Source of the DNA: a virus
Taxonomy: Duplodnaviria; Heunggongvirae; Uroviricota; Caudoviricetes
Length of the DNA stretch: 18,913 nt
Direction: 5' to 3' (one strand)
Virus record (IMG/VR): IMGVR_UViG_3300028969_000096
Span: 1 to 18,913 of that record
The notes below the pieces were generated by a model that saw nothing but the letters and a program-made list of their open reading frames with translations, was not told where the DNA came from and made no database searches. The translations under genes were made by a program, and so were the position numbers. Positions 383-18,395 of this stretch are shown here, in pieces (within the stretch, counting starts at the first letter, position 1; each line of letters opens with the position of its first letter).

Positions 383-760
383 TTATTTCGAACAATCAGC
401 ATCCATCTCCAATCGGAGATCCAACACCATCAGCATACCCTCCACTACGCCCTCAGCTTTCTGGAGCATCCTGCCAACCCAACAATCAGATCGCCCATGC
501 TTACGTGCAAGCGCCATAAAAGTCATGCCGCCGACATAATAGTCCACCAATAAATCATGCAAATCGCTGTTGTTCTTTTTCAGACGGGCCATGCACCCGC
601 AAATGATCATCGCGTCATCGTCACAACATTGCGGGCGAGATTTTACTTTTGAAGGAATTAATCCCTTAAAACCGGCGGCAATGGACGACCAGGTCACATC
701 TTCATGATTATTAGCCGCCCACGCTCCCCAACGTTCAAGAACCATCTGAATATCACGCAT
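383..760 (-). CDS. quuD: Late-gene antiterminator Q (phage 82 / DLP12 QuuD-like)
   Basis: The translation [35 protein letters not shown]...[18 protein letters not shown]... matches what I recall of the short Q antiterminator family (QuuD, about 127 aa). I place the start at the internal ATG at 760 because GGAGAAAG sits 6 nt upstream; the track ORF extends to 775. It is the last gene of the minus-strand operon, with a terminator downstream. Confidence 0.65.
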
Positions 761-777
761 TAACTTTCTCCACAAAA

Positions 778-1773
778 TCAGGCCAGCACACCAATCGCCA
801 GTGCGCGATCGATAAAACGAAATATCAGCTCCAGCTGGGAGCCATACTTCTCTTCAAATGCCACGGTATCCGCATGCAGTTCGTCGTGGTGTTTTCTGCA
901 CAAAGGCAGCACAAAAAGGTCATGCGCTTTTGTACCCATTCCACCCTGACCATGGCCTATCAGATGATGCGGATCATCAGCTGGCTTTCCACAACATGCA
1001 CACGGCTGCGTCTTAACCCAGCGCGTGTACTGTTCATTAACCCAGCGACGACGTTTGGGGCGTAACATAAAAGACTCCGGCGACTCCGGATCCACTTTCA
1101 GCGCCAGCACCTTTTTCGCTTTATCCTGGATAATGCTGGTGGCAGGAACCGAAGGCACAAGGTCACTTTCCCGGGTGACAGACGGCAAAACAGACTTCGG
1201 TAATCTCAGTGCCTTACGGGCTGCGCTTTCCGGTAAGGCATCCGCCAGGTCATTACGAACCAGCCACCAGCACAGTTCCGGCATTGTCACGGCATGGTTA
1301 TCATTAAAATCGAGATCCCGACGGACTACAGACAACACCCAACGGGCACAGTTATCCGTTGCCATTGATTCCAGCCGCTCCGTGAACTGATCACGTAACT
1401 GATTATCGCAGTGCCAGCACAGACGGATTGCGCCCGGCGCGTGTCGCATTGTGGTCATGTTCTCGCTGTGCCAGTCGGAATGAGGCCACTGGCAGCCTTT
1501 TTCACGAAGTAACCAGCTTTCAAGACATTCCACCCCACCAGCACGACGAATCACTGCCTCATTACGGAACACGGCCCGAACGGCAGGATCATCCGCCAGC
1601 GGTTGTGATGCCGCGGGAACGGCACCACTGGCGAAAGATGAATAATGCTCCGGCTCAGGCTCCAGCAGTACACGCCCCTGCATAAACAGGGGCATCAGCT
1701 CTGAACCGGGCCTGAACAATACGATCCCCATACGCGGGGCAATTTCAGGGGTCAATAGTGCTCTCACGGTCAC
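778..1773 (-). CDS. DUF968-family protein (YdfU-like) with C-terminal Cys/His HNH-like motif
   Basis: A 331-aa ORF whose C-terminus reads [21 protein letters not shown]...[12 protein letters not shown]. It sits immediately upstream of Q, as ydfU does next to quuQ in prophage Qin from memory. The start may be the GTG at 1773 or at 1767. Confidence 0.5.
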
Positions 1774-1774
1774 C

Positions 1775-2572
1775 TCAATGAACGGTATCGAGCAGCTTTA
1801 ACAGCTCAGGGAATCGGGATTCGAAGAAATGCGGCTGCGTCTCGCGCGGATTTGCGGGACTGGTGATGTTCTTGCCGAACATGCAGCCTTTCGCTGTCAG
1901 CGACCAGAATTTTTTGATGTTGTTAATCGCGGTACGGCTGTATCGTTCGCGCTGCTCGACGATCCCCAGCTTCACCATCTGGTGATATGCCTGATTAGCT
2001 GTCAGGCGGATACCATACTGCTTCAGCAGTGCACTCAGTGACAGCGTGGGACGGCTTGAGCCATCAGGCGCGTCAGCAGGAGCATCAATGGCATAGCGCG
2101 GTGCCAGATTCGGTAAGCCAACAGCCTCCTGGAGTTTCTGACAGGCACCAAGCACTGAAGAGTTAGACAGGTTTAACTCCCGGCGCATAAAGTCCAGCAG
2201 AATCACGCCAGCCTGCATCTTGTCAGCAGCCTGCCCGGATAATTTTTCCGATGCGCTGGTTACCATATCGAAAGTACGGATCACCTTCAGATGGAATGAC
2301 GGGCTGATCCACATTGCATAGGCATACACCAGTTCTTTGCAGACATACGTCCCCTGGTTATTTCCGCCACGAATAACGTTAACTGGCTCTATATTGACCG
2401 AGTTGCAAATCTGCAACTCGCTTATTAAACGTTCAGTTTGCTCATTGCGGAGCCAGAATGCAGGCTTATGCTTATCCAGAGAACCGGCAGCCCTGTGCAG
2501 ATCGTTCAGGCTGTAACGCCCATAAGCATCACGACGAACTTCAATACCATCAATGACCATCAGATTATTCAT
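1775..2572 (-). CDS. KilA-N domain protein (antirepressor/Bro-like)
   Basis: The N-terminus MNNLMVIDGIEVRRDAYGRYSLNDLHRAAG...AFWLRNEQTERLI...YVCKELVYAYAMWISPSFHLKVI is a typical KilA-N/ORF6N domain. I chose the start at 2572 because AGGAG lies 9 nt upstream; the track ORF begins at 2605. Confidence 0.6.
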   Translation of the reverse strand: MNNLMVIDGIEVRRDAYGRYSLNDLHRAAGSLDKHKPAFWLRNEQTERLISELQICNSVNIEPVNVIRGGNNQGTYVCKELVYAYAMWISPSFHLKVIRTFDMVTSASEKLSGQAADKMQAGVILLDFMRRELNLSNSSVLGACQKLQEAVGLPNLAPRYAIDAPADAPDGSSRPTLSLSALLKQYGIRLTANQAYHQMVKLGIVEQRERYSRTAINNIKKFWSLTAKGCMFGKNITSPANPRETQPHFFESRFPELLKLLDTVH

Positions 2573-2591
2573 ACTTCGTTTCTCCTCTTGA

Positions 2592-2981
2592 TCAGGCGGC
2601 TGCACCCGCCGTTTTCTCGTACTTACTGATAGTGATCTCGACCTTCCCTTCCGGGATAACCGGTCCCCACTCCACCAGCATTCTTTTCACCTGGCTGTCG
2701 TCTTCCCACACACCCGCGTGGGTCAGGGCGTCAAACAGCGCCTTGTTATAGTTGTCCAGATCGCGGATCCGGTTATCCGGAGGAAACAACACGATCTCCA
2801 CTGAAGCAGGTGCCGACGTTGGTTTCGGCAGACGACGTAACTGCTCAACTATTGCTGTGCACGCCGCACTCTGGAATTTTCGCCCCGCCGCGCTTATCAG
2901 GCTCTTACCAGCAAATGCCACTTTGTTGGGGTGTCGCCAGTAGGTGTTCACGCTGGGTGGAAAAGGCAGAATCAGCTTCAT
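2592..2981 (-). CDS. rusA: Holliday-junction resolvase RusA
   Basis: The 129-aa product starts MKLILPFPPSVNTYWRH and contains RDLDNYNKALFDALTHAGVWEDDSQV, both characteristic of the RusA family. Its start codon overlaps the stop of the upstream gene. Confidence 0.8.
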   Translation of the reverse strand: MKLILPFPPSVNTYWRHPNKVAFAGKSLISAAGRKFQSAACTAIVEQLRRLPKPTSAPASVEIVLFPPDNRIRDLDNYNKALFDALTHAGVWEDDSQVKRMLVEWGPVIPEGKVEITISKYEKTAGAAA

Positions 2982-3304
2982 ACTTTCAGCCCCCTCTCAT
3001 GTAACCAGTGGGCTGCACGCAGCCTGGCGTTTTCCTCACCAGCAAGCAGTGCGCGGATAATCCCGGCCACCTCGCTGTCGTCGTCCTTCACCGCGGTATG
3101 AAGCGTGATGCCCCGGGCCACGCCACGCTTTATCGTGATGACGCCTTTTTTCTCCAGTGCGCGAAGATGCTCCACCGCTGCATTCACTGAACGGTATCCC
3201 AGCATGGTAGCCACCTCCTGATTGGTTGGCGGGAAGCCACGTTCTTTCTGGTAAGAAATCAGCATATCCAGCACCTGCTGCTGGCATTGAGTTAACGTCG
3301 TCAT
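2978..3304 (-). CDS. LexA N-terminal DNA-binding-domain-like protein with no S24 peptidase domain
   Basis: The product LTQCQQQVLDMLISYQKERGFPPTNQEVATMLGYRSVNAAVEHLRALEKKGVITIKRGVARGITL aligns by eye with the LexA winged-helix domain (…[32 protein letters not shown]…). No Ser/Lys peptidase domain follows. I place the start at the ATG at 3304, which overlaps the upstream TAA as TAATG. Confidence 0.55.
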   Translation of the reverse strand: MTTLTQCQQQVLDMLISYQKERGFPPTNQEVATMLGYRSVNAAVEHLRALEKKGVITIKRGVARGITLHTAVKDDDSEVAGIIRALLAGEENARLRAAHWLHERGLKV

Positions 3305-3798
3305 TAAGCCCCCACGTAATTCCCTGACAGATACCACTCTTCACCCGATACAGCGCGCTTGCTGCTTTTCCGTAAACACCGCTCACGACGCGCAAGAAAA
3401 TTGTTTCGCTCTTGCTGGGAGTGGCTTTCACGGAATGCCGCCATCCACACCGTTGCAGCACGACGGTATAAGCCCCTGGACTCCAGTTCTTCCGCCTGGC
3501 GGGTCAGGCACAAAATCACCCGGGGATCGTTAGTGCCGACATAGAAATTGCGCACAGGTCTGGATTCACGAACTGGTTGCGGTTCCGGCTCCTGCGGTAT
3601 CTCAGTCAGCCGCGGGAAATGTCTGCGTGTATCCCCTTCACAACGGTGAGCCACACGCCCACTCTGACGTAACTTGCTTGCTGACTGCAGAACGCGCTGT
3701 CGTGAGTAACCTGCAAAAGCATCCGCAATGTCTCCGGAAGTACACCCCGGATGGGCTTCAATGAATTTCTGAACGTCATTCAAAAGACTCATGATCAC
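3304..3798 (-). CDS. Putative PerC-family-like regulator
   Basis: The C-terminal motif LESRGLYRRAATVWMAAFRESHSQQERNNFLARRERCL resembles the PerC/Pch signature (GLWRRAA…W…RRE.CL) as I recall it. The start overlaps the O-like stop in an ATGA arrangement. The family assignment is tentative. Confidence 0.4.
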   Translation of the reverse strand: MIMSLLNDVQKFIEAHPGCTSGDIADAFAGYSRQRVLQSASKLRQSGRVAHRCEGDTRRHFPRLTEIPQEPEPQPVRESRPVRNFYVGTNDPRVILCLTRQAEELESRGLYRRAATVWMAAFRESHSQQERNNFLARRERCLRKSSKRAVSGEEWYLSGNYVGA

Positions 3799-4736
3799 CC
3801 CCTGAATCCTGCCGGGATCTGGCTGTAGTCCACGTTGTCGTAACTGGCTTTGAAGTACGGGTCTTCGCGTTTTTCGGTGTACGTGCTGACGGACGGCGAT
3901 AAGCGCAGGGAAAGCTCATCCCATTTTTCCCGCAGCTTCGACGGGCTGAGCACGTTACGGCACCAGAACGGATCGCGACTGACGCGGCTGTACATCTCGC
4001 AGATTTGTTTATGAGTACGACCATCCTGCACACACATCAGGCGAATTTCGTTTGCCCAGGCTATCCAGTTCGGTTCTTTGGGACGAACCACCTCGCCGTC
4101 ACATTCGGCGGCATGCTCGTACAGGGCGATGATTTTTTTCCAGAGCCACTGTGCGCAGGTCAAATCATCCTGCGTCCCCCACTGGCGCTTTTTAGGGCTG
4201 AATACAACCGCATCAGGATGGCGAGTTAAAAAATCCTGTTCAGCCGTCTGCGTGTCCGGTTGCGAAGCGTCCGGACGAGAAGTTTTTTTATCTGACGGAT
4301 CATGTTTTGATTTTACTGACGGATCCCCACCAGATTCTGACGGGTGAAAACCCGCTTTTTTGCCAGATTTCGACGCATCAAATTTTGACGGGTCAGATTT
4401 TGATGCGTCAGATTTTGACGGGTCAGAATCTGACAGTTGAGAAAATGCCGCTGCCTGAAGCTTCGCAACGTTAAGCTGATAAACATTCGACGCATTGCGG
4501 TTACCCTGGCGACGCGCCCTACGCGTTAACCAGCCTTCTGCTTCCAGCCGTGCGATAGCCGTTCTGACGGTACTCATCCCCGCGCCAATCTGGCGGGCAA
4601 TGGTTTCAATTGATGGCCAGCACACACCTTCGTCATTACTGAAATCAGCCAGGCGGGCCATAATTGCCACGCTGGATAATTTCATGCCTGATGCAGCGCA
4701 ACCATCCCATACATAGCCGGTTAATTTAGTGCTCAT
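3795..4736 (-). CDS. Replication initiator (lambda O-like) with N-terminal winged-helix and repeat-encoded linker
   Basis: The N-terminus SVAIMARLADFSNDEGVCWPSIETIARQIGAGMSTVRTAIARLEAEGWL is a winged-helix typical of phage replication initiators. The central DPSKSDASKSDPSKFDASKSG is encoded by tandem DNA iterons. GAGG lies 7 nt upstream of the ATG at 4736. Confidence 0.6.
   Translation of the reverse strand: MSTKLTGYVWDGCAASGMKLSSVAIMARLADFSNDEGVCWPSIETIARQIGAGMSTVRTAIARLEAEGWLTRRARRQGNRNASNVYQLNVAKLQAAAFSQLSDSDPSKSDASKSDPSKFDASKSGKKAGFHPSESGGDPSVKSKHDPSDKKTSRPDASQPDTQTAEQDFLTRHPDAVVFSPKKRQWGTQDDLTCAQWLWKKIIALYEHAAECDGEVVRPKEPNWIAWANEIRLMCVQDGRTHKQICEMYSRVSRDPFWCRNVLSPSKLREKWDELSLRLSPSVSTYTEKREDPYFKASYDNVDYSQIPAGFRG
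4289..4438. repeat. Iteron array, candidate phage origin of replication inside the initiator gene
   Basis: Seen in sequence: six roughly 15-bp units. Copies at 4331-4345 (cagattctgacgggt), 4364-4378, 4379-4393 (caaattttgacgggt), 4394-4408 (cagattttgatgcgt), 4409-4423 (cagattttgacgggt) and 4424-4438. Degenerate CTGACGGATC copies sit at 4292-4301 and 4316-4325. The organisation parallels ori-lambda inside O. Confidence 0.55.
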
Positions 4737-4745
4737 GACCGACCT

Positions 4746-5084
4746 CTATTTCCCTGAATTTACGACGAAACTGTTCGAGCGGGCTGAAGCACTCATGCTC
4801 ATAGCCTTCGCGGAGGTAGATAACACGTTGTGTTTCCGGTTCCCAACGAATGACTCTGACGGGCACTCCGTAGTGATCTTTGAACCAGCGGTTAACTTGT
4901 CGCAAAGGACTGTCTCCTTCTGCCGGTTGAAATCACCCACAGCCCACTCAGCAAAGCTGTGGGTTACAATTTCCCTGTCACCTGGTACATTCACTGCATA
5001 GCAATATTCCACCTTCGCTTTTCCACCCGGTACAGGAAGCGCAATCAGTTGCGAGCGACGGTAGTGTGTTGTTAAACTGTTCAT
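4746..5084 (-). CDS. Hypothetical protein (112 aa)
   Basis: The ORF fills the gap between the CII-like and O-like genes. Its ATG overlaps the upstream TGA as ATGA, and GGAG lies upstream. No recognisable motif. A competing plus-strand ORF (4729-5001) is considered less likely from operon context. Confidence 0.4.
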
Positions 5085-5743
5085 GCGTTAGTTTCTCCAC
5101 AGTCACGACACGCCACGGCGCCCGGAGCTGCACACTCGCGGGCGTCATTACTTTCTGAAATGCAAAAGATTTTGTAGACCAGTGCTGCATGCTCCTGCAG
5201 CTTCGAAATTGAGAGATACAGCTCGTCGTTAATTGCTGTCTTCTCATGCGGTTCCACTACACCGTCTTCGATTGCTGAACGAATCTGTTTTGAATAACTG
5301 CCGATCTGTTCAATGACTTCCAGCAGACGCTGGTTAATATCGGCGTTGTCCACATCCTCGACGTCAGGAAGAGACACAAATACGCCATTTGCAGACTGCG
5401 CCACAGCATCAGCAATGAAGTGAGTGCCACCAGCACGCTGTAAAACCATTGCCCATCCCAGCGGGAAAATCTGATCGCCATCGGCACGAAGGCGGTTAAA
5501 TAATGCGTTCTCTGTTACGTCCAGCCAGTCAGCAGCTTCAGCGTAACCCCCCGGCAACGCTGCGATAGTTTTTCTGACAGCTTTCACGTACCACTCAGGC
5601 TGTTTTTCTATTTTCCAGTGATGCTTACCCACGGTTAACTCCTCGTTTCTGTGGTTACGTTTACGCAGCTGAACCGCTAACTTTTGAATAGCACTCAGGT
5701 AATCCATCATTTGGATTGGGGTAAATATCAGGACGCAGTTCAT
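5081..5743 (-). CDS. Putative CII-like / YdaT-like early regulator
   Basis: The ORF lies directly downstream of the cro-like gene on the same strand. The start is uncertain (5743, or the ATGs at 5710 and 5707) and either choice overlaps the 3' end of cro. The function is assigned by position only. Confidence 0.35.
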
Positions 5744-5924
5744 GAGGGGTCACGGACCAGTTTCCCAACTCACAAAGTTGTAAAACCCGTTCTGACGGGA
5801 CTTGATTGTTAATTACCCAATTAGCGACGGATTGAGTGGACTTAAAACCAAAGTGACGGGCTACTTCAGATAAAGATTTTCCCGCAGCTTTTACTGCTTT
5901 CTCTGTGTAGTTTTGAGATGACAT
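5661..5924 (-). CDS. Cro-like HTH repressor (YdaS-like)
   Basis: An 87-aa product with the HTH KSLSEVARHFGFKSTQSVANWV. It is divergent from the cI-like gene, and the SD GGAGAAAGG precedes the ATG at 5924. Confidence 0.65.
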   Translation of the reverse strand: MSSQNYTEKAVKAAGKSLSEVARHFGFKSTQSVANWVINNQVPSERVLQLCELGNWSVTPHELRPDIYPNPNDGLPECYSKVSGSAA

Positions 5925-6040
5925 ACCTTTCTCCTCTGAAATTCAGAGGGATGATGCTACTTAAAATAGCAGAATGCAACTACTTAAAATAGAAATGACT
6001 AGCGTATGTGATGCGAGTAACCTTCTACCTATGGTAGAAG
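5925..6040. promoter_or_regulatory. Divergent cI/cro control region with candidate operators
   Basis: Seen in sequence: a 17-bp perfect palindrome cctctgaaAttcagagg (5933-5949), a second 17-bp palindrome ttctaccTATggtagaa (6021-6037), and two copies of ctacttaaaatag (5957-5969 and 5980-5992). Promoter positions were not resolved. Confidence 0.5.
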
Positions 6041-6735
6041 AACAGAAGTATCCAGATTTCGCCAAGAGACTAAACGAGCTAATGACAAACAAGGGAATTT
6101 CTGTCACCCAACTCAAAAGTCTTGTGGGCGTTACATATGAAATGGCGCGGCGATACACAATCGGCGCTGCGAAGCCTCGTGCCTCTGTCATGAATAAACT
6201 TGCATTGGCTCTGGGGGTATCAGCTTCATATTTAGAATATGGTGTTGGCGAGAGAGAAGGATGTAAGGAAATGGCAAGCATCCCCAATCCAACAAAACCC
6301 GATGTATACAGGATAGAAGTTTTGGATCTTAGCGTTAGCGCAGGACCTGGAACCTATATGCTTTCAGACTATGTTGATGTGCTCTACGCCATTGAGTTCA
6401 CAACAGAGCATGCCCGTTCTCTTTTCGGTAATCGTTCTCAAGATGATATTAAAGTTATGACTGTAAATGGCGACAGCATGTCCCCTACTCTAGTTTCCGG
6501 AGATCGACTGTTTGTCGACATTTCTGTTCGCAACTTCCAAACTGATGGTGTTTACTCTTTCGTTTATGGTAAGACGTTCCACGTTAAACGTCTACAAATG
6601 CAAGGCAACAAACTCGCCGTTCTTTCGGATAATCCAGCCTATGAGAAATGGTACATTGATGAGAAGTCCCAAGATCAACTTTATGTTATGGGCAAAGCAT
6701 TGATACACGAATCAATTAAATACAACCGGCTTTAG
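5974..6735 (+). CDS. cI-like repressor (HTH-XRE plus S24 LexA-like peptidase domain)
   Basis: HTH: FAKRLNELMTNKGISVTQLKSLVGVTYEMARRYTIG. Peptidase region: GDSMSPTLVSGDRLFVD...FHVKRLQ..., giving the Ser/Lys dyad context. The true start may be the ATG at 5995 or 6031 rather than 5974. Confidence 0.8.
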   Translation: MQLLKIEMTSVCDASNLLPMVEEQKYPDFAKRLNELMTNKGISVTQLKSLVGVTYEMARRYTIGAAKPRASVMNKLALALGVSASYLEYGVGEREGCKEMASIPNPTKPDVYRIEVLDLSVSAGPGTYMLSDYVDVLYAIEFTTEHARSLFGNRSQDDIKVMTVNGDSMSPTLVSGDRLFVDISVRNFQTDGVYSFVYGKTFHVKRLQMQGNKLAVLSDNPAYEKWYIDEKSQDQLYVMGKALIHESIKYNRL

Positions 6736-6905: not shown

Positions 6906-7982
6906 ATGACAAAATCAATTTGTTTTTTTAATCATAAAGGTGGGGTAAGTAAAACCACAACAACCTTCAATCTTGGATGGGCACTTGCGGATGAAGGCAA
7001 GAAAGTATTGATGGTTGACCTTGATTCGCAATGTAATCTAACAGGAATGGTTCTTGGCTATGAAAAGATTGATGAGGGTTTAGATTCTTTTTATTCTAGC
7101 AGAGATAACTTAACTCTTGGACCTATTGTAGAATATTTGATTAATGGCGGACAACCTGAAGCATACCTTGAAAAAGAAACGGGAAAATTACACCCTACAC
7201 TGCATGAAAACCTTCTGCTTCTTCCCGGACATTTAGATGTTTCGGACTTAGATTCACAGATAAGTGTTTCTCTAAAAATTGCTGCTGGTATTCCTGCTAC
7301 AAGAAATATACCAGGGAACCTGCCAAAAATATTACAGCTAATCGCCATGAAGAATAATATTGATTACATTCTTTATGATCTCAGCCCTAATGTTGGAGGT
7401 TTAAATGAAGTAGTTCTCATGTCAAGTGACTATTTTATCGTACCTGTAGCTCCAGACTTTTTTTGCTGGCAAGCAATTCGCTCTCTCTCAAAAAATATAC
7501 CTCGCTGGCACAAAGAATTAGCATTATTTAAAGAAAATAATGATGGTAACTCTTCACAATCAATTAAAAATGCACCGCAGTTTCTAGGTATGATTCAGCA
7601 GAGATACAGGCCGCGTAAAGGAGCACCTGTAAAATCTTTCGAAAAATGGATGGCAGCTATCCGTGATGCTGTTGATTCGATCTTAGTGCCAAATCTAGAA
7701 AAAATTACCTGCATAATTCCACGAGATAAAGTGCAACATGCAATTAACAAAACAACAGTCAGTGGAGATTTATCAGCCTATGATCTTGCGCATATTTCCG
7801 ATTTCAACTCATTAATCGCAATAAGCCAACAACTAGCGACACCTGTTTTCTCCATCAGTGATCAGCAAATTCGCGATTCAGGGCAATTTGGGCATGCCTT
7901 AAATACAATGAAATCAAGCAGAGACGCCTTTAACGAACAATTTAAAGGGCTGGCTCAACGAGTTCTAGAACTTACAAAGTAA
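6906..7982 (+). CDS. ParA/MinD-family P-loop ATPase (orphan, 358 aa)
   Basis: Deviant Walker A KGGVSKTT sits at the extreme N-terminus (MTKSICFFNHKGGVSKTTTTFNLGWALADEGKKVLMVDLDSQ). A Walker B-like region follows (ILYDLSPNVGG...YFIVPVAP). There is a long C-terminal extension of unknown type. The RBS AAAGGA precedes the ATG. The gene lies in a markedly AT-rich island directly downstream of cI. Confidence 0.8.
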   Translation: MTKSICFFNHKGGVSKTTTTFNLGWALADEGKKVLMVDLDSQCNLTGMVLGYEKIDEGLDSFYSSRDNLTLGPIVEYLINGGQPEAYLEKETGKLHPTLHENLLLLPGHLDVSDLDSQISVSLKIAAGIPATRNIPGNLPKILQLIAMKNNIDYILYDLSPNVGGLNEVVLMSSDYFIVPVAPDFFCWQAIRSLSKNIPRWHKELALFKENNDGNSSQSIKNAPQFLGMIQQRYRPRKGAPVKSFEKWMAAIRDAVDSILVPNLEKITCIIPRDKVQHAINKTTVSGDLSAYDLAHISDFNSLIAISQQLATPVFSISDQQIRDSGQFGHALNTMKSSRDAFNEQFKGLAQRVLELTK

Positions 7983-7989
7983 TGCATGT

Positions 7990-8022
7990 GCCCGGCCGCA
8001 TAACCGGGCTTTACTCTTCTTT
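7990..8022 (+). terminator. Intrinsic terminator after the ParA-like gene
   Basis: Stem gcccgg(7990-7995)/ccgggc(8004-8009) with an 8-nt loop, followed by tttactcttctttc. Confidence 0.5.
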
Positions 8023-8304
8023 CTCCCTGATTAATCTCATAAAAAACTCCCTCCTCATAATTCACTATGCTCAATACCTACTCCAACTTCGTGCGATATT
8101 TTCAGTTTACAGCATAGTAAATCAGCAAAAACATTTAACTTTCAATTAATTATAGAAAAATCATAGACAACAACAAATATCTACTTTTTGTTGTTGATTT
8201 TTGCTACTTTAAGTAGCAACATAATGTAAGCTATCACGGACAGGCAGGACGCCCACGAAGTAGCCGCCGGTGGCGTATGAATGACCGGATGATTCGTTAG
8301 CAAC

Positions 8305-8327
8305 AAAAAAGCGCCCTACAGGACGCT
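8305..8327 (-). terminator. Intrinsic terminator on the minus strand
   Basis: In minus-strand RNA: AGCGUCC-UGUA-GGGCGCU, a 7-bp stem with one U-G wobble, followed by UUUUUUGUUGC. It lies about 180 nt downstream of the 8506-9009 gene. Confidence 0.45.
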
Positions 8328-8505
8328 TAGCTCTTTAACAATCTTAGTATCCCCGTAACAAAAGAGGGTTCTATGGTCATATTCTGTGCTTACGTTCATC
8401 CTAATGGATTTTTTATCAGCACCAACCAACAAGACGAATTCTGGATTCTACTTAGTAAGCAGGTCGGATGGGGACGATTCTGTCTAATCCGACCAGAATC
8501 AGAAT

Positions 8506-9009
8506 TTACAGAGAATGGAGGGCTTTTTGAATTACGTGAAATACGTCCGGCAGATGGTCAAGCCCCTGACCAAGTAATCGAATCGTCAGCTGTTTTATGG
8601 CGTCGGCAGGAAGCGTTCGAAGCTGAGAGAGTAATTTCTTCTTATCTTCAGTCGTGGCAGAAGTAGAACTATTGATGATACGTTCAAGTTCACAGAGAGT
8701 CTCATCATGCAATCTTATTGTCATAATCCCAAGAATAGCTTTAAGACCTCCATCATCACGAATGAAATCAATTCCATCTTTAGTAATTCTTAATTCAGGA
8801 ATATTTATATTTATGCCATCCAAGTAATAATCAAGAGCATTCTTAATCAAGCCATGTTCTTCGAGATAAATTAAGTTCGAAATTAGGACATTATCATCTC
8901 CAAATGCGTCACGAACAGACTGCAACGCATCATCAGAAATTTCATAAGGATGAGCATCATACAGTATTTGTAACAACTGCCTTTGTGCACTTCTATCAAA
9001 TTTGTCCAT
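8506..9009 (-). CDS. Hypothetical protein, possibly a small winged-helix phage protein (DUF2513-like)
   Basis: A 167-aa ORF with GGTGA upstream of the ATG. The N-terminal two thirds have no competing ORF. The 3' third overlaps a plus-strand ORF (8373-8666) that has a strong RBS, so the boundaries and even the coding strand near 8506-8666 are unresolved. Confidence 0.45.
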   Translation of the reverse strand: MDKFDRSAQRQLLQILYDAHPYEISDDALQSVRDAFGDDNVLISNLIYLEEHGLIKNALDYYLDGININIPELRITKDGIDFIRDDGGLKAILGIMTIRLHDETLCELERIINSSTSATTEDKKKLLSQLRTLPADAIKQLTIRLLGQGLDHLPDVFHVIQKALHSL

Positions 9010-9333
9010 CTTAAATAATCACCATGTTATTGGGGGTATCAAGATTAACCGAATCCTTGTTGTTGGGGAATAACCAGGTCCACCTCGCCTGATGTGGCTA
9101 AAAGCAGGCACATAACAGCTAAGTATTTTCAACCAGAGAGAATCCTTAGCGTTGTGGTGAATGCGGCTCAGCGCACGCGGGTTAAGGTTGAGGCTGACAG
9201 TCGACCTTCTGTGGATACCCACCCGCCTGGTGTGCAACCTTCGCCAGGCACCGGGAGGCACCCGGCACCACAACAGCCACTGCTTTGGCGGTACCAGTTT
9301 GTACACTTGCTTCCGGCTGGCACCGCTCTTTTT

Positions 9334-9422
9334 ACAAAACAGAGAAGAGCATCACCGGACGACGGGCTCATAACCCAATCCATCCGGGCGGCTGCCACCG
9401 CAGGTGTTCTTCTCTGTTTTGT
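9334..9422 (+). repeat. Long hairpin: 15-bp perfect inverted repeat flanking a 59-nt structured loop, within a roughly 450-bp non-coding GC-rich region
   Basis: Seen in sequence: acaaaacagagaaga (9334-9348) is the exact reverse complement of tcttctctgttttgt (9408-9422), with inner pairing cacc/ggtg. Immediately upstream is a terminator-like hairpin gcggtacc...ggcaccgc followed by tcttttt (9295-9333). No convincing ORF covers 9019-9470. Confidence 0.6.
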
Positions 9423-9470
9423 GGAGAAACCAACCGACCTTGCAGGGTCGATATGATGAGGAGCAGCAAA

Positions 9471-17810: not shown

Positions 17811-18395
17811 TTACTCCCTGACAGGGTTCGTAGGCCACTCAATATCAGGTGCAGTTGATGTATCAACACGGTTCAGCAACACCCGATACTTTTTCCAGGC
17901 TTCCAGCAATGAGGTTTCTTCCTCCGTTGCGATTTCCAGATCTACAGCATCCTGAAGTGGCGCAATATGCTCACTGGCTACCTGCATCAGGCTGTTTTTT
18001 ATTTCTTCCGCCTCTCGGATCCGGAACAGTTTTTCTGCTTCTGCATCTTTCACCCAGGCTGTGCCGTTCCACTTCTGAAACTCCCCTTCCGGCGATAACC
18101 AGGTAACATTTTCCGGTAACGGACCGAGTTCAGAAATAAATAACTCGCCCCCTGACGCTACGTCATAAACCGTTTTACCCCGATGGTCTTCAACGAGATG
18201 CCACGATGCCTCATCACTGTTGAAAACAGCCACAAAGCCAGCAGGAATATCTGGCGGTGCAATATAGGTGCTGTTTGCTGGCAGACCTGTATGAGGCGGA
18301 ATATATGCGTCACCTTCACCAATAAATTCATTAGTTCCGGCCAGCAGATTATAAATTTTTATGGTCCGTGGTTGTTCACTCATTCTGAATGCCAT
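17811..18395 (-). CDS. Tail-fibre assembly protein (Tfa)
   Basis: A 194-aa product containing the lambda Tfa family motifs ...[38 protein letters not shown]. Its start overlaps the stop of the upstream tail-fibre gene. Confidence 0.8.
17857..17977. repeat. Direct repeat, copy B (partner of 16807-16927)
   Basis: Seen in sequence, as for copy A. Confidence 0.7.

What the first reader, a model, noticed from the sequence alone, without database searches (positions are those of the whole stretch)
9019..9470. GC-rich structured non-coding region upstream of the early-left operon: candidate ncRNA or antitermination element
About 450 bp with no credible ORF lies between the low-GC island and the first early-left gene. 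It contains a terminator-like hairpin with a U-tract (9295-9333) followed immediately by a large hairpin closed by a 15-bp perfect inverted repeat (9334-9348 with 9408-9422). A further small hairpin (cgacc/ggtcg, 9434-9449) abuts the RBS of the YfdP-like gene. By position this is where a pL-proximal nutL or put-like RNA, or a phage sRNA, would lie. No N-like antiterminator gene is evident in the window, so an RNA-based (put-like) mechanism is plausible.
Basis: partly seen in the sequence, partly recalled or inferred. Interest (0 to 1): 0.6.

Follow-up and report, generated by a model that had tools for sequence, protein, structure and literature searches.

The report
Prophage small RNA plus conserved leader
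The 450-base gap holds a variant of a known prophage small RNA with its terminator, then a conserved, apparently undescribed folded RNA leader before the first early-left gene; it is not the phage's promoter-proximal antitermination site, which lies about 800 bases upstream.

Summary
The hairpins are real and non-coding. The plus strand folds far better than shuffles (z -5.15), and RefSeq annotates nothing there.

The region is composite:
- **9150-9333, small RNA.** A mosaic allele of sRNA-17 (E. coli K1 RS218; mapped there by RACE and Northern). It shares that RNA's first 15 bases and its linker and terminator. Its core is identical to an SfV-type allele that passes the Rfam STnc100 threshold.
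- **9287-9333, intrinsic terminator.**
- **9334-9422, three-way junction.** It has strong covariation, and one arm copies 14 bases of the initiator tRNA anticodon arm.
- **9420-9450, conserved linear motif and small hairpin.**

The junction core also occurs in other phages upstream of RdgC-like, YfdR-like and holin genes. In one of them a strong STnc100 match and two terminator-like hairpins lie upstream of it.

The nutL/put reading is not supported at these coordinates. The pL operator, a conserved leader RNA and an exact rrn-type boxA sit at 8181-8341. No similarity to HK022 put was found.

Verdict: the ncRNA reading is correct and that part is essentially already known. The junction leader is apparently undescribed and its function is unknown.

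The parts
9015..9042 (-). Promoter-like site (TTGATA-16-GATTAT) for the minus-strand gene 8506-9009. It occupies the left edge of the finding.
   Evidence: Consensus scan. The gene is a full-length match to phrog_3983. The match is to a consensus only.
9080..9109 (+). Conserved motif (a), CCAC-N4-CCUGAUGUGG-N2-AAAAG-CAGGC. It has interleaved complementary segments (CCAC/GUGG and GCCUG/CAGGC). It is either a promoter with a conserved spacer or a small pseudoknot.
   Evidence: 25 sequence variants across loci, each next to the start of a minus-strand gene wherever inspected. There is one compensatory change (GCCGG/CCGGC in L024). Its function is undecided.
9118..9150 (+). Hairpin GCUAAG...CUUAGC between motif (a) and the sRNA body. 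It is covered by positions 1-30 of the Rfam STnc100 model in the SfV-type allele.
   Evidence: Fold. The STnc100 hit in L101 starts at the homologous position.
9150..9276 (+). Multibranch body of the sRNA: a 9-bp closing stem GUUGUGGUG/CACCACAAC enclosing five hairpins. The 5' end is inferred at 9150.
   Evidence: Fold -58.1 kcal/mol. STnc100 local match of 35.6 bits at 9153-9272. The first 125 bases are identical to L101, which scores 49.1 bits full length. The first 15 bases are identical to the sRNA-17-type allele, and the first 16 match the sRNA-17 full-length primer.
9287..9333 (+). Intrinsic terminator of the sRNA: stem 9287-9297/9317-9327, T-run 9329-9333.
   Evidence: Fold. It is the reverse complement of the sRNA-17 full-length forward primer apart from one base. 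The stem sequence changes with pairing kept in other genera.
9334..9422 (+). Three-way-junction RNA. P1 is 9334-9353/9403-9422. P2 is 9355-9387, with an apical GGG-CUCAUAA-CCC. P3 is 9388-9401.
   Evidence: In the alignment that also includes the small hairpin 9435-9450, 93.3% of cells are paired against 38-48% in slid controls, 14 pairs have double changes, and 0 of 500 shuffles reach this. GU/UG cells number 43 against 6 AC/CA cells. P3 indels are not multiples of three. z is -7.27.
9363..9376 (+). CGGGCUCAUAACCC, 14 bases identical to the anticodon arm of E. coli initiator tRNA-fMet.
   Evidence: tRNA sequence as printed in PMC8887418. The motif is conserved across genera, with variants CUCAUUC and a one-G deletion.
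9420..9435 (+). Conserved single-stranded motif UGUGGAGAAACCAACC directly after P1.
   Evidence: Nearly invariant in alignment A2. A one-mismatch copy at 5086-5101(-) sits just upstream of an ORF start, so it resembles a ribosome-binding region.
9435..9450 (+). Small GC hairpin just before the yfdP Shine-Dalgarno (GAGGAG 9458-9463; ATG 9471).
   Evidence: Fold. Two of its 5 pairs show double changes. Similar hairpins with UUGCAG/UGGCAG/GUGCAG loops precede other first genes.
8181..8225 (+). Outside the finding: candidate pL with an operator-like palindrome CTACTTTAAGTAG (8204-8216) and a CATAAT -10-like hexamer (8220-8225).
   Evidence: The same 13-mer occurs twice in the cI-cro intergenic region. 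Sequence. In other immunity types, canonical TTGACA-N16/17-CATAAT promoters occupy this place.
8229..8306 (+). Outside the finding: conserved pL-proximal leader RNA ('P element').
   Evidence: Found downstream of many different promoter/operator sets (43 distinct core sequences). One helix covaries strongly (UA11/GC8/CG6; GC14/UA7/AU3). It is a single copy in the window.
8330..8341 (+). Outside the finding: exact rrn-type boxA GCUCUUUAACAA, preceded by hairpin 8309-8328, which also reads as a minus-strand terminator.
   Evidence: Exact single match in the window. It recurs after the P element in several loci. Terminator scan. The rrn boxA consensus is from memory.

Best explanation
The interval is a composite non-coding "operon head", not a nut or put site.

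**1. Left edge (about 9015-9045).** It belongs to the promoter of a minus-strand accessory gene.

**2. Small RNA (9150-9333).** This encodes a prophage small RNA of the sRNA-17 / STnc100 kind: a multibranch body closed by GUUGUGGUG/CACCACAAC, ending in an intrinsic terminator. Motif (a) and the hairpin at 9080-9150 may hold its promoter or a 5' precursor part. In a lysogen I infer that this RNA is made and ends at 9333. Its terminator would then also shield the excision and integration genes downstream (yfdP to int) from transcription.

**3. Leader (9334-9470).** This is the 5' leader of the first early-left gene: a three-way-junction RNA, a conserved linear motif and a small hairpin next to the ribosome-binding site. 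It would be transcribed only by polymerase that passes the terminator. The likeliest source is pL at about 8.2 kb after induction. I propose that the conserved leader RNA at 8229-8306 and the boxA at 8330-8341 make that polymerase termination-resistant.

**4. Role of the junction.** Its 20-pair stem with an A-rich 5' arm and U-rich 3' arm most likely acts as a second barrier and/or an RNase III processing site that frees the mRNA from the upstream RNA. The conserved arms probably bind a factor.

**Shown:** the structures, their conservation, the strand, and the homology to sRNA-17 and STnc100.

**Inferred:** expression of this allele, read-through from pL, and the role of the junction.
For: **Small RNA**
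- The sRNA-17 full-length primers match the 5' closing stem and the terminator.
- The 194-base mEp460-type homologue aligns with window 9150-9333. The first 15 bases are identical, as are the last 75 or so apart from one substitution and a T-run length difference. The interior differs.
- NCTC86, which is identical to the window here, is listed by those authors as a degenerate sRNA-17.
- STnc100 scores 35.6 bits in the window. It scores 49.1 bits, against a threshold of 47, in L101, whose core is identical.
- STnc100 copies are transcribed in EHEC and one was confirmed by Northern blot (PMC5331693).
- Replacing the interior of sRNA-17 with a cat cassette raised yfdP from 0.49 to 47 reads and yfdR from 0 to 8.5 (PMC7719688). 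This fits an element sitting directly upstream of yfdP.

**Junction**
- Covariation and slid controls support the fold.
- GU/UG cells outnumber AC/CA cells 43 to 6, which points to the + strand.
- The core recurs upstream of YfdP, RdgC-like, YfdR-like and holin genes.
- In L238 an 84.4-bit STnc100 match and two hairpin-plus-T-run sites lie upstream of it.

**pL location:**

**Modularity:** loci exist that lack single modules (L034, L008, L016, L025).
Against: - No transcript data exist for this allele. Its interior differs from the mapped sRNA-17, and the window copy misses the Rfam threshold.
- The terminator stem carries an A.C mismatch.
- The 5' end at 9150 is inferred from another allele and could be a processing site.
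- The yfdP increase in the deletion mutant may be read-through from the inserted cat cassette, so it says little about natural regulation.
- Nothing shows that the P element or boxA confers read-through. The pL -35 is poor, with a 20-base spacing to the best TTGATT.
- The late-operon version of the junction has only a 5-bp closing stem. So neither the terminator role nor the RNase III role can be the function shared by all copies.
Confidence: 0.65

Rival explanations
1. A late-promoter-style unit at the head of the early-left operon. Motif (a) would be a promoter with a conserved factor-binding spacer, the sRNA body its leader, and 9287-9333 its terminator. A phage antiterminator such as Q, or another factor, would let this transcript run into yfdP-int. 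The terminated product would be the small RNA, as the 6S RNA is for lambda pR'-tR' (that comparison is from memory).
For: - The same order (STnc100, hairpin-plus-T-run sites, junction, first gene) lies upstream of the holin in other phages. In L238 a gene I read as Q-like by eye lies further upstream.
- Motif (a) marks the left edge of plus-strand modules. It is followed within 0-2 bases by AT-rich -10-like hexamers in most variants.
- In L025, motif (a) is followed almost directly by the terminator.
Against: - Motif (a) matches the sigma-70 -35 poorly, and the promoter scan did not report it.
- It is absent upstream of the late-region STnc100 in L238 and from the mEp460/RS218 allele.
- No Q-binding or pause element has been identified.
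Confidence: 0.15
2. One reading: the structured RNA in 9019-9470 is itself a cis-acting processive antiterminator (put-like or nutL-like) that lets polymerase pass the terminator at 9333 and those beyond.
For: - No N-like gene was found.
- Motif (a) has interleaved helices and an A-rich linker, followed by a hairpin. HK022 putL also has interleaved pairings (3-7 with 15-19, and A9-G35 and G12-U32) and a second stem (PMC9378689; my reading of the topology).
- The element sits upstream of a terminator.
Against: - It lies about 850 bases from the candidate pL, with a gene between.
- No sequence similarity to putL or putR.
- There is only one copy of motif (a) in the window and none in the early-right operon.
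- Only one compensatory change supports the pseudoknot.
- The body 9150-9333 is a discrete, terminated sRNA in RS218.
- The boxA-like CGCUCUUUUUAC in the terminator's 3' arm is not conserved in other genera.
Confidence: 0.08
3. The junction and its flanks are a regulatory sensor for the first gene, that is an attenuator or a translational operator. A protein or the ribosome would bind the initiator-tRNA-like arm and the UUGCAG-type hairpins to set translation or stability of yfdP.
For: - The loop nucleotides are nearly invariant while the stems covary.
- A similar small hairpin lies directly before the Shine-Dalgarno of unrelated first genes.
- The tRNA-fMet anticodon-arm identity.
Against: - No partner has been identified.
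- The loop is not consistently complementary to the start regions.
- Variants lose one G of the GGG/CCC stem, and L029 replaces the loop altogether.
- A 20-pair P1 is unlike known riboswitch switching helices.
Confidence: 0.1
4. Decayed or unannotated coding DNA. Small proteins would be encoded here, for example the minus-strand ORF 9398-9168 that begins at the AUG opposite the CAU loop.
For: - Partial PHROG matches: phrog_3651 to residues 1-41 of the minus-strand ORF, and phrog_33599 to residues 78-114 of ORF 9094-9456.
- Some phage records annotate hypothetical proteins here.
Against: - No Pfam match.
- Only 37-41 residues match, and they coincide with the conserved RNA modules.
- Insertions in P3 are not multiples of three.
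- Both arms of the stems change together.
- The ORFs end at different places in different genera, and L029 lacks the AUG, by my reading of the sequences.
- RefSeq annotates nothing.
- These PHROGs are probably built from spurious ORF calls over the RNA.
Confidence: 0.02

Closest known systems
sRNA-17 of E. coli K1 RS218 (mEp460-like prophage; PMC7719688)
   Same: Same locus, directly upstream of yfdP. Same 5' start (CGUUGUGGUGAA), same closing stem, and the same linker and terminator. The identical NCTC86 sequence is listed by the authors as a degenerate copy.
   Different: About 110 bases of the interior are unrelated in sequence. This copy is 184 bases against 193. Expression, ArcA control and phenotypes were shown only for the RS218 allele.
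STnc100 (Rfam RF02076) and the related PasD prophage sRNAs
   Same: Closing stem UGGUG.../...CACCA and the conserved hairpin CCGGGAGGCACCCGG before it. Prophage location upstream of a terminator. The SfV-type allele with the identical core passes the family threshold.
   Different: The window copy scores 35.6 bits against a threshold of 47. The typical STnc100 seen here (L238) lies in the late region upstream of the lysis genes, not upstream of the early-left operon. No function is established for the family.
HK022 put RNAs
   Same: A phage lacking an N-like gene, with structured RNA upstream of terminators. Motif (a) has a loosely similar interleaved-helix layout.
   Different: Put lies immediately after pL and about 270 nt after the pR start, in two similar copies, and binds polymerase. 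Here there is no sequence similarity, no second copy, and a distance of about 850 bases from pL. The element that is put-like by position is the P element at 8229-8306, and a profile of it does not match put either.
Lambda nutL (boxA plus boxB) and the rrn antitermination leader
   Same: A hairpin followed by an exact rrn-type boxA exists in this prophage just after pL.
   Different: It is at 8309-8341, outside the finding. No N gene and no boxB-type pentaloop were seen. Inside the finding, the only boxA-like string is the E. coli-specific 3' arm of the terminator.
Lambda pR'-tR' 6S RNA and the RNase III site in the lambda N leader (both from memory)
   Same: A short terminated leader RNA at an operon head, and a long stem between the promoter-proximal signals and the first ribosome-binding site.
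   Different: Neither relationship was tested. The junction has three arms and conserved loops, unlike a simple RNase III hairpin.
tRNA-anticodon-arm mimics in mRNA leaders, such as the thrS operator (from memory)
   Same: A leader hairpin that copies a tRNA anticodon stem-loop, here that of tRNA-fMet.
   Different: No synthetase or initiation-factor gene is nearby and no binding is shown. The rest of the junction is not tRNA-like, and ARAGORN finds no tRNA in the window.

Membership tests
STnc100 (Rfam RF02076) | Covariance-model score at or above the curated gathering score of 47 bits | tested here: not met
   The window scores 35.6 bits, a local match to model positions 31-147, and gave no hit at gathering threshold. 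The SfV-type allele L101, identical over the first 125 bases, scores 49.1 bits full length. The window copy is therefore a borderline relative rather than a clean member.
STnc100 (Rfam RF02076) | Prophage-borne, discrete RNA of about 200 bases ending in a terminator | tested here: met
   Prophage context. Terminator at 9287-9333. Predicted length is 184 bases from 9150, or about 215 from about 9120.
sRNA-17 (E. coli K1 RS218) | Sequence homology to the 193-base RACE-mapped RNA | tested here: inconclusive
   The ends match: the first 15 bases, and the last 75 or so apart from one substitution and a T-run difference. The interior does not. The authors class the identical NCTC86 sequence as degenerate sRNA-17.
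sRNA-17 (E. coli K1 RS218) | Position directly upstream of yfdP in a lambdoid prophage | tested here: met
   The mEp460 match covers query 240-452, adjoining yfdP. yfdP and yfdR are the genes most raised in the deletion mutant.
sRNA-17 (E. coli K1 RS218) | Expression as a stable RNA under ArcA control | not testable with these tools
   Needs a Northern blot or RNA-seq of a strain carrying this allele.
HK022 put RNA | Sequence or profile similarity to putL/putR | tested here: not met
   Short-word blastn of 9019-9470 against the HK022 nun-cI-cro region gave only chance-level words. The putL and putR sequences read out show no alignment.
HK022 put RNA | Location just downstream of the early promoter(s), in two copies (left and right) | tested here: not met
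   The candidate pL is at 8181-8225. The finding starts about 800 bases later. Motif (a) is single-copy in the window.
HK022 put RNA | Protein-independent suppression of terminators through the polymerase beta' zinc-binding domain | not testable with these tools
   Needs read-through assays and rpoC mutants.
Lambda-type nut site | boxA followed by a boxB hairpin, in the leader of an N-dependent operon | tested here: not met
   The exact boxA occurs only at 8330-8341. No N-like protein was seen among the ORFs between cI and yfdP.
tRNA or tmRNA gene | Cloverleaf recognised by ARAGORN | tested here: not met
   0 genes in the window. Only the anticodon arm is copied.

The most novel reading that the evidence does not exclude
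The three-way junction would be a new class of phage leader RNA placed at the heads of antitermination-controlled operons, both early-left and lysis. It would work by mimicking the anticodon arm of initiator tRNA. It could engage the 30S P site or IF3 to set translation of the first gene. Alternatively it could act as a decoy or sensor for nucleases that cut tRNA-fMet in the anticodon loop, such as enteric VapC toxins (that activity is recalled from memory).
Probability: 0.12. Interest if true: 0.8.

Novelty: new member of a known kind. Interest (0 to 1): 0.5.

Why it matters
- **A link between two named RNAs.** sRNA-17, whose authors found no Rfam relative, and the STnc100 family are tied together through a mosaic allele. 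Both sit in a recurrent cassette of small RNA, terminator, three-way junction and first gene. This cassette occurs at the early-left head here and, in other phages, upstream of the lysis genes.
- **A caveat for published phenotypes.** Replacing such small RNAs with a cassette may act through polar read-through into phage genes. The 90-fold rise of yfdP in the sRNA-17 mutant fits that possibility.
- **Testable regulation in N-less phages.** SfV/ST64B-like phages may control early-left transcription with a conserved pL leader RNA plus a host-type boxA. Both elements now have exact coordinates.
- **A defined target.** The junction with its initiator-tRNA-like arm is widespread, supported by covariation and apparently undescribed.

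Tried and rejected
- **Put homology.** Blastn of the region against the HK022 immunity region and a profile of the P element against HK022 found nothing.
- **Second copies.** No second copy of motif (a), the P element or boxA occurs in the early-right operon.
- **Sigma-54 promoter in motif (a).** GGCAC is present, but the GC element is off by one and is not conserved (variants).
- **Sigma-70 promoter in motif (a).** The fit is weak (and by eye).
- **A uORF starting at the GUG/AUG of GUGGAG.** Its length ranges from 3 to more than 60 codons and its frame is not conserved (sequences).
- **Minus-strand small protein from the AUG opposite the CAU loop.** Rejected on covariation, the GU bias and variable ends.
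- **boxA-like CGCUCUUUUUAC in the terminator.** It is E. coli-specific.
- **RfaH ops-like GGCGGUAC at the terminator's 5' arm.** It mismatches the ops core as I recall it, and it varies between genera.
- **Pas sRNAs.** PasB lies among structural genes, so it is not this locus.
- **Mapping the published EDL933 STnc100 coordinates onto NZ_CP008957.** This failed, probably because the paper used a different assembly.
- **RS218 record.** It is not in the collection, so mEp460-type loci were used instead.
- **My first two motif searches** returned nothing because of my own spacing errors. They were replaced by a regex search.

Full report
**1. Observation.**
- The terminator-like hairpin pairs 9287-9297 with 9317-9327 and has one A.C mismatch. 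The T-run is 9329-9333.
- The 15-bp inverted repeat 9334-9348/9408-9422 is exact.
- The small hairpin is 9435-9439/9446-9450.
- GC rises to 0.56-0.57.
- The plus strand folds at -178.1 kcal/mol (z -5.15, 0 of 100 shuffles). The minus strand gives z -2.15.
- No RefSeq feature lies under the interval.
- It occurs in 2782 of 5426 complete E. coli genomes and in 74 phage records, including SfV, SfII, SfIV, ST64B and mEp460.

**2. Context.** The window is an SfV/ST64B-like lambdoid prophage. In window coordinates it reads as follows.
- Q to cro lie on the minus strand (383-5924).
- cI is at 6031-6735.
- A ParA-like ATPase is at 6906-7982.
- A minus-strand gene lies at 8506-9009 (phrog_3983).
- The gap follows, then yfdP, yfdQ, yfdR, yfdS, yfdT, xis and int.

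**3. Where pL is.** The 13-mer CTACTTAAAATAG occurs twice between cro and cI. A palindromic relative, CTACTTTAAGTAG, sits at 8204-8216, followed by CATAAT at 8220-8225.
- From 8229 runs a conserved "P element". The same element follows many different, immunity-specific promoter/operator sets elsewhere, several with canonical TTGACA-N16/17-CATAAT (43 distinct core sequences).
- One of its helices covaries strongly.
- An exact rrn-type boxA, GCUCUUUAACAA, lies at 8330-8341. It recurs after the P element in other loci.
- So the promoter-proximal signals lie 700-850 bases upstream of the finding.
- A profile of the P element does not match HK022 put, and the window holds one copy only.

**4. Dissection by comparison.** I fetched loci anchored on YfdP homologues from species-representative genomes, mostly enterobacterial genera, and from IMG/VR. 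Their upstream regions resolve the gap into modules that come and go independently:
- motif (a), 9080-9109;
- a hairpin, 9118-9150;
- a multibranch domain, 9150-9276;
- a terminator, 9287-9333;
- a three-way junction, 9334-9422;
- a conserved linear motif, 9420-9435;
- a small hairpin, 9435-9450.

L034 has only the last three. L008 lacks the terminator and the junction. L016 lacks the junction. L025 lacks the multibranch domain.

**5. The small RNA.**
- Rfam gives only a sub-threshold STnc100 match in the window (35.6 bits). The SfV-type allele L101 passes at full length (49.1 against 47 bits), and its first 125 bases are identical to window 9150-9274.
- A paper on E. coli K1 RS218 describes sRNA-17. 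It is 193 bases, mapped by RACE and Northern blot, and lies in an mEp460-like prophage (PMC7719688).
- Its full-length primers are CGTTGTGGTGAATGCGCAGGC... and the reverse complement of ...GTACACTTGCTTCCGGCTGGTACCGCTCTTTT. These are the start of the closing stem and the terminator of this module.
- The mEp460-type homologue (194 bases in L072) shares the first 15 bases with the window. It also shares the last 75 or so, apart from one substitution and a T-run length difference. The interior differs.
- The authors list CP019778.1 (NCTC86) as a degenerate copy. NCTC86 is identical to the window over this interval.
- They found no Rfam relative, and the mEp460 allele indeed gives no STnc100 hit. 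The window allele bridges the two names.
- STnc100 copies are transcribed in EHEC and one was confirmed by Northern blot. Their function is unknown.
- In the sRNA-17 replacement mutant, yfdP rose from 0.49 to 47 reads. That fits its position directly upstream, and possibly read-through from the inserted cassette.

**6. The junction.** I aligned 20 distinct sequences from several genera and counted the pairs of the structure, including the small hairpin.
- 93.3% of cells are paired, against 38-48% when partners are slid.
- 14 pairs have changes on both sides.
- 0 of 500 shuffles reach the observed values on four of the five measures.
- GU/UG cells outnumber AC/CA cells 43 to 6, so the plus strand is the folded one.
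- P3 varies in length by amounts that are not multiples of three.
- Partial PHROG matches coincide with the RNA modules, and Pfam finds nothing. I read those PHROGs as built from spurious ORF calls.
- The apical part of P2, CGGGCUCAUAACCC (9363-9376), is identical to the anticodon arm of E. coli tRNA-fMet. ARAGORN finds no tRNA in the window.

**7. Distribution of the junction core.** The 20-base core occurs in at least 120 IMG/VR stretches.
- 85 of the 120 have a YfdP homologue downstream.
- The others have RdgC-like, YfdR-like or excisionase-like genes (named by eye from their N-terminal sequences).
- With a short closing stem, the core also lies upstream of proteins I read as holins, which begin lysis cassettes.
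- In L238 an 84.4-bit STnc100 match lies about 240 bases upstream of that copy, with two hairpin-plus-T-run sites between them.
- No paper in the searched library holds the core sequence.

**8. Motif (a), the linear motif and the small hairpins.**
- Motif (a) is nearly invariant, with variable bases only in the predicted loops. It has one compensatory change.
- It lies just right of the start of a minus-strand gene wherever I inspected it. An AT-rich hexamer usually follows.
- It may be a promoter with a conserved spacer, or a pseudoknot. I could not decide.
- A near-copy of UGUGGAGAAACYAAC sits just upstream of another ORF's start at 5086-5101(-).
- Hairpins with UUGCAG, UGGCAG or GUGCAG loops recur in P3 and before the Shine-Dalgarno of each first gene.

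**9. Mechanism.**
- Shown: the structures, the strand, conservation, modularity and homology.
- Inferred for the lysogen: the small RNA is made and stops at 9333, which also insulates yfdP-int.
- Inferred after induction: polymerase from pL becomes termination-resistant at the P element and boxA. It crosses more than 1 kb of untranslated RNA and the terminator, then transcribes the junction leader and the operon.
- The long P1, with an A-rich 5' arm and a U-rich 3' arm, suggests a second barrier or an RNase III site.
- The conserved arms suggest a bound factor.
- Because the late-operon copies have a short P1, the shared function must lie in the arms.

**10. Verdict.** The "ncRNA" reading is right and largely already described. 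The "nutL/put by position" reading is not supported. What is new is the bridge between sRNA-17 and STnc100, the recurrent cassette, and an apparently undescribed junction RNA with an initiator-tRNA-like arm.

Noticed in passing
window 8181-8306: Candidate pL/oL followed by a conserved leader RNA of about 75 bases (the 'P element'). The same element is found after many different immunity-specific promoters. One of its helices covaries. It matches no Rfam family, and no paper in the searched library holds its sequence.
   Followed up: partly
window 8309-8341: A hairpin that reads as a terminator for the minus-strand gene, immediately followed on the plus strand by GCUCUUUAACAA. By memory of the consensus, this is an exact rrn-type boxA. 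It recurs after the P element in other loci.
   Followed up: partly
window 6906-8149: A ParA-like ATPase (PF13614, phrog_164; weak PADLOC PDC-M28B match) plus a 55-aa ORF lie between cI and pL. In lambda, rexAB occupies this position (from memory). This may be an accessory or defence gene pair.
   Followed up: no
window 8373-8666 (+) versus 8506-9009 (-): A 97-aa plus-strand ORF with a good ribosome-binding site is the first ORF after pL and boxA. It has no family match and overlaps the 3' end of the minus-strand phrog_3983 gene. It has no arginine-rich N-like motif.
   Followed up: partly
window 17854-18052 (-): Full-length Rfam IS009 match (227.8 bits), outside the prophage arm studied here.
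   Followed up: no
window 5086-5101 (-): UGUGGAGAAACUAACG, a one-mismatch copy of the leader's linear motif, sits just upstream of the ATG of ORF 4746-5084(-) in the early-right operon. The motif therefore resembles a ribosome-binding region or a module-boundary sequence.
   Followed up: partly
L119, L238-L247 (for example L238:3495-3578): The junction core with a short closing stem lies 120 bases upstream of holin-like genes. Hairpin-plus-T-run sites precede it, and in L238, L243 and L244 an STnc100-type sequence lies further upstream.
   Followed up: partly
L028:about 2600-2830 and L030:about 2620-2830 (Providencia): A CsrA-like ORF (MLILTRR...; recognised by eye) occupies the place of the sRNA body, between motif (a) and the terminator.
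   Followed up: no
L072:139-327 (-): C4 antisense RNA (83.6 bits) and isrK (67 bits) lie side by side about 2.7 kb upstream of yfdP in the mEp460-type locus.
   Followed up: no
L101:1950-2120 and 2605-2865; L019:2100 and 2631: Tandem repeats of the motif (a) module within one leader, each just right of a minus-strand gene. The first L101 copy carries an sRNA-17-type 5' part that runs into an ORF.
   Followed up: partly
window 9094-9456 (+) and 9168-9398 (-): phrog_33599 and phrog_3651 match only the stretches that overlie the conserved RNA modules. These families are probably built from spurious ORF calls over this non-coding region.
   Followed up: partly
L005 and L012 (E. coli): Some E. coli carry yfdP (98% identical) with an unrelated upstream region. 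Only the last 19 bases of the leader are kept.
   Followed up: no
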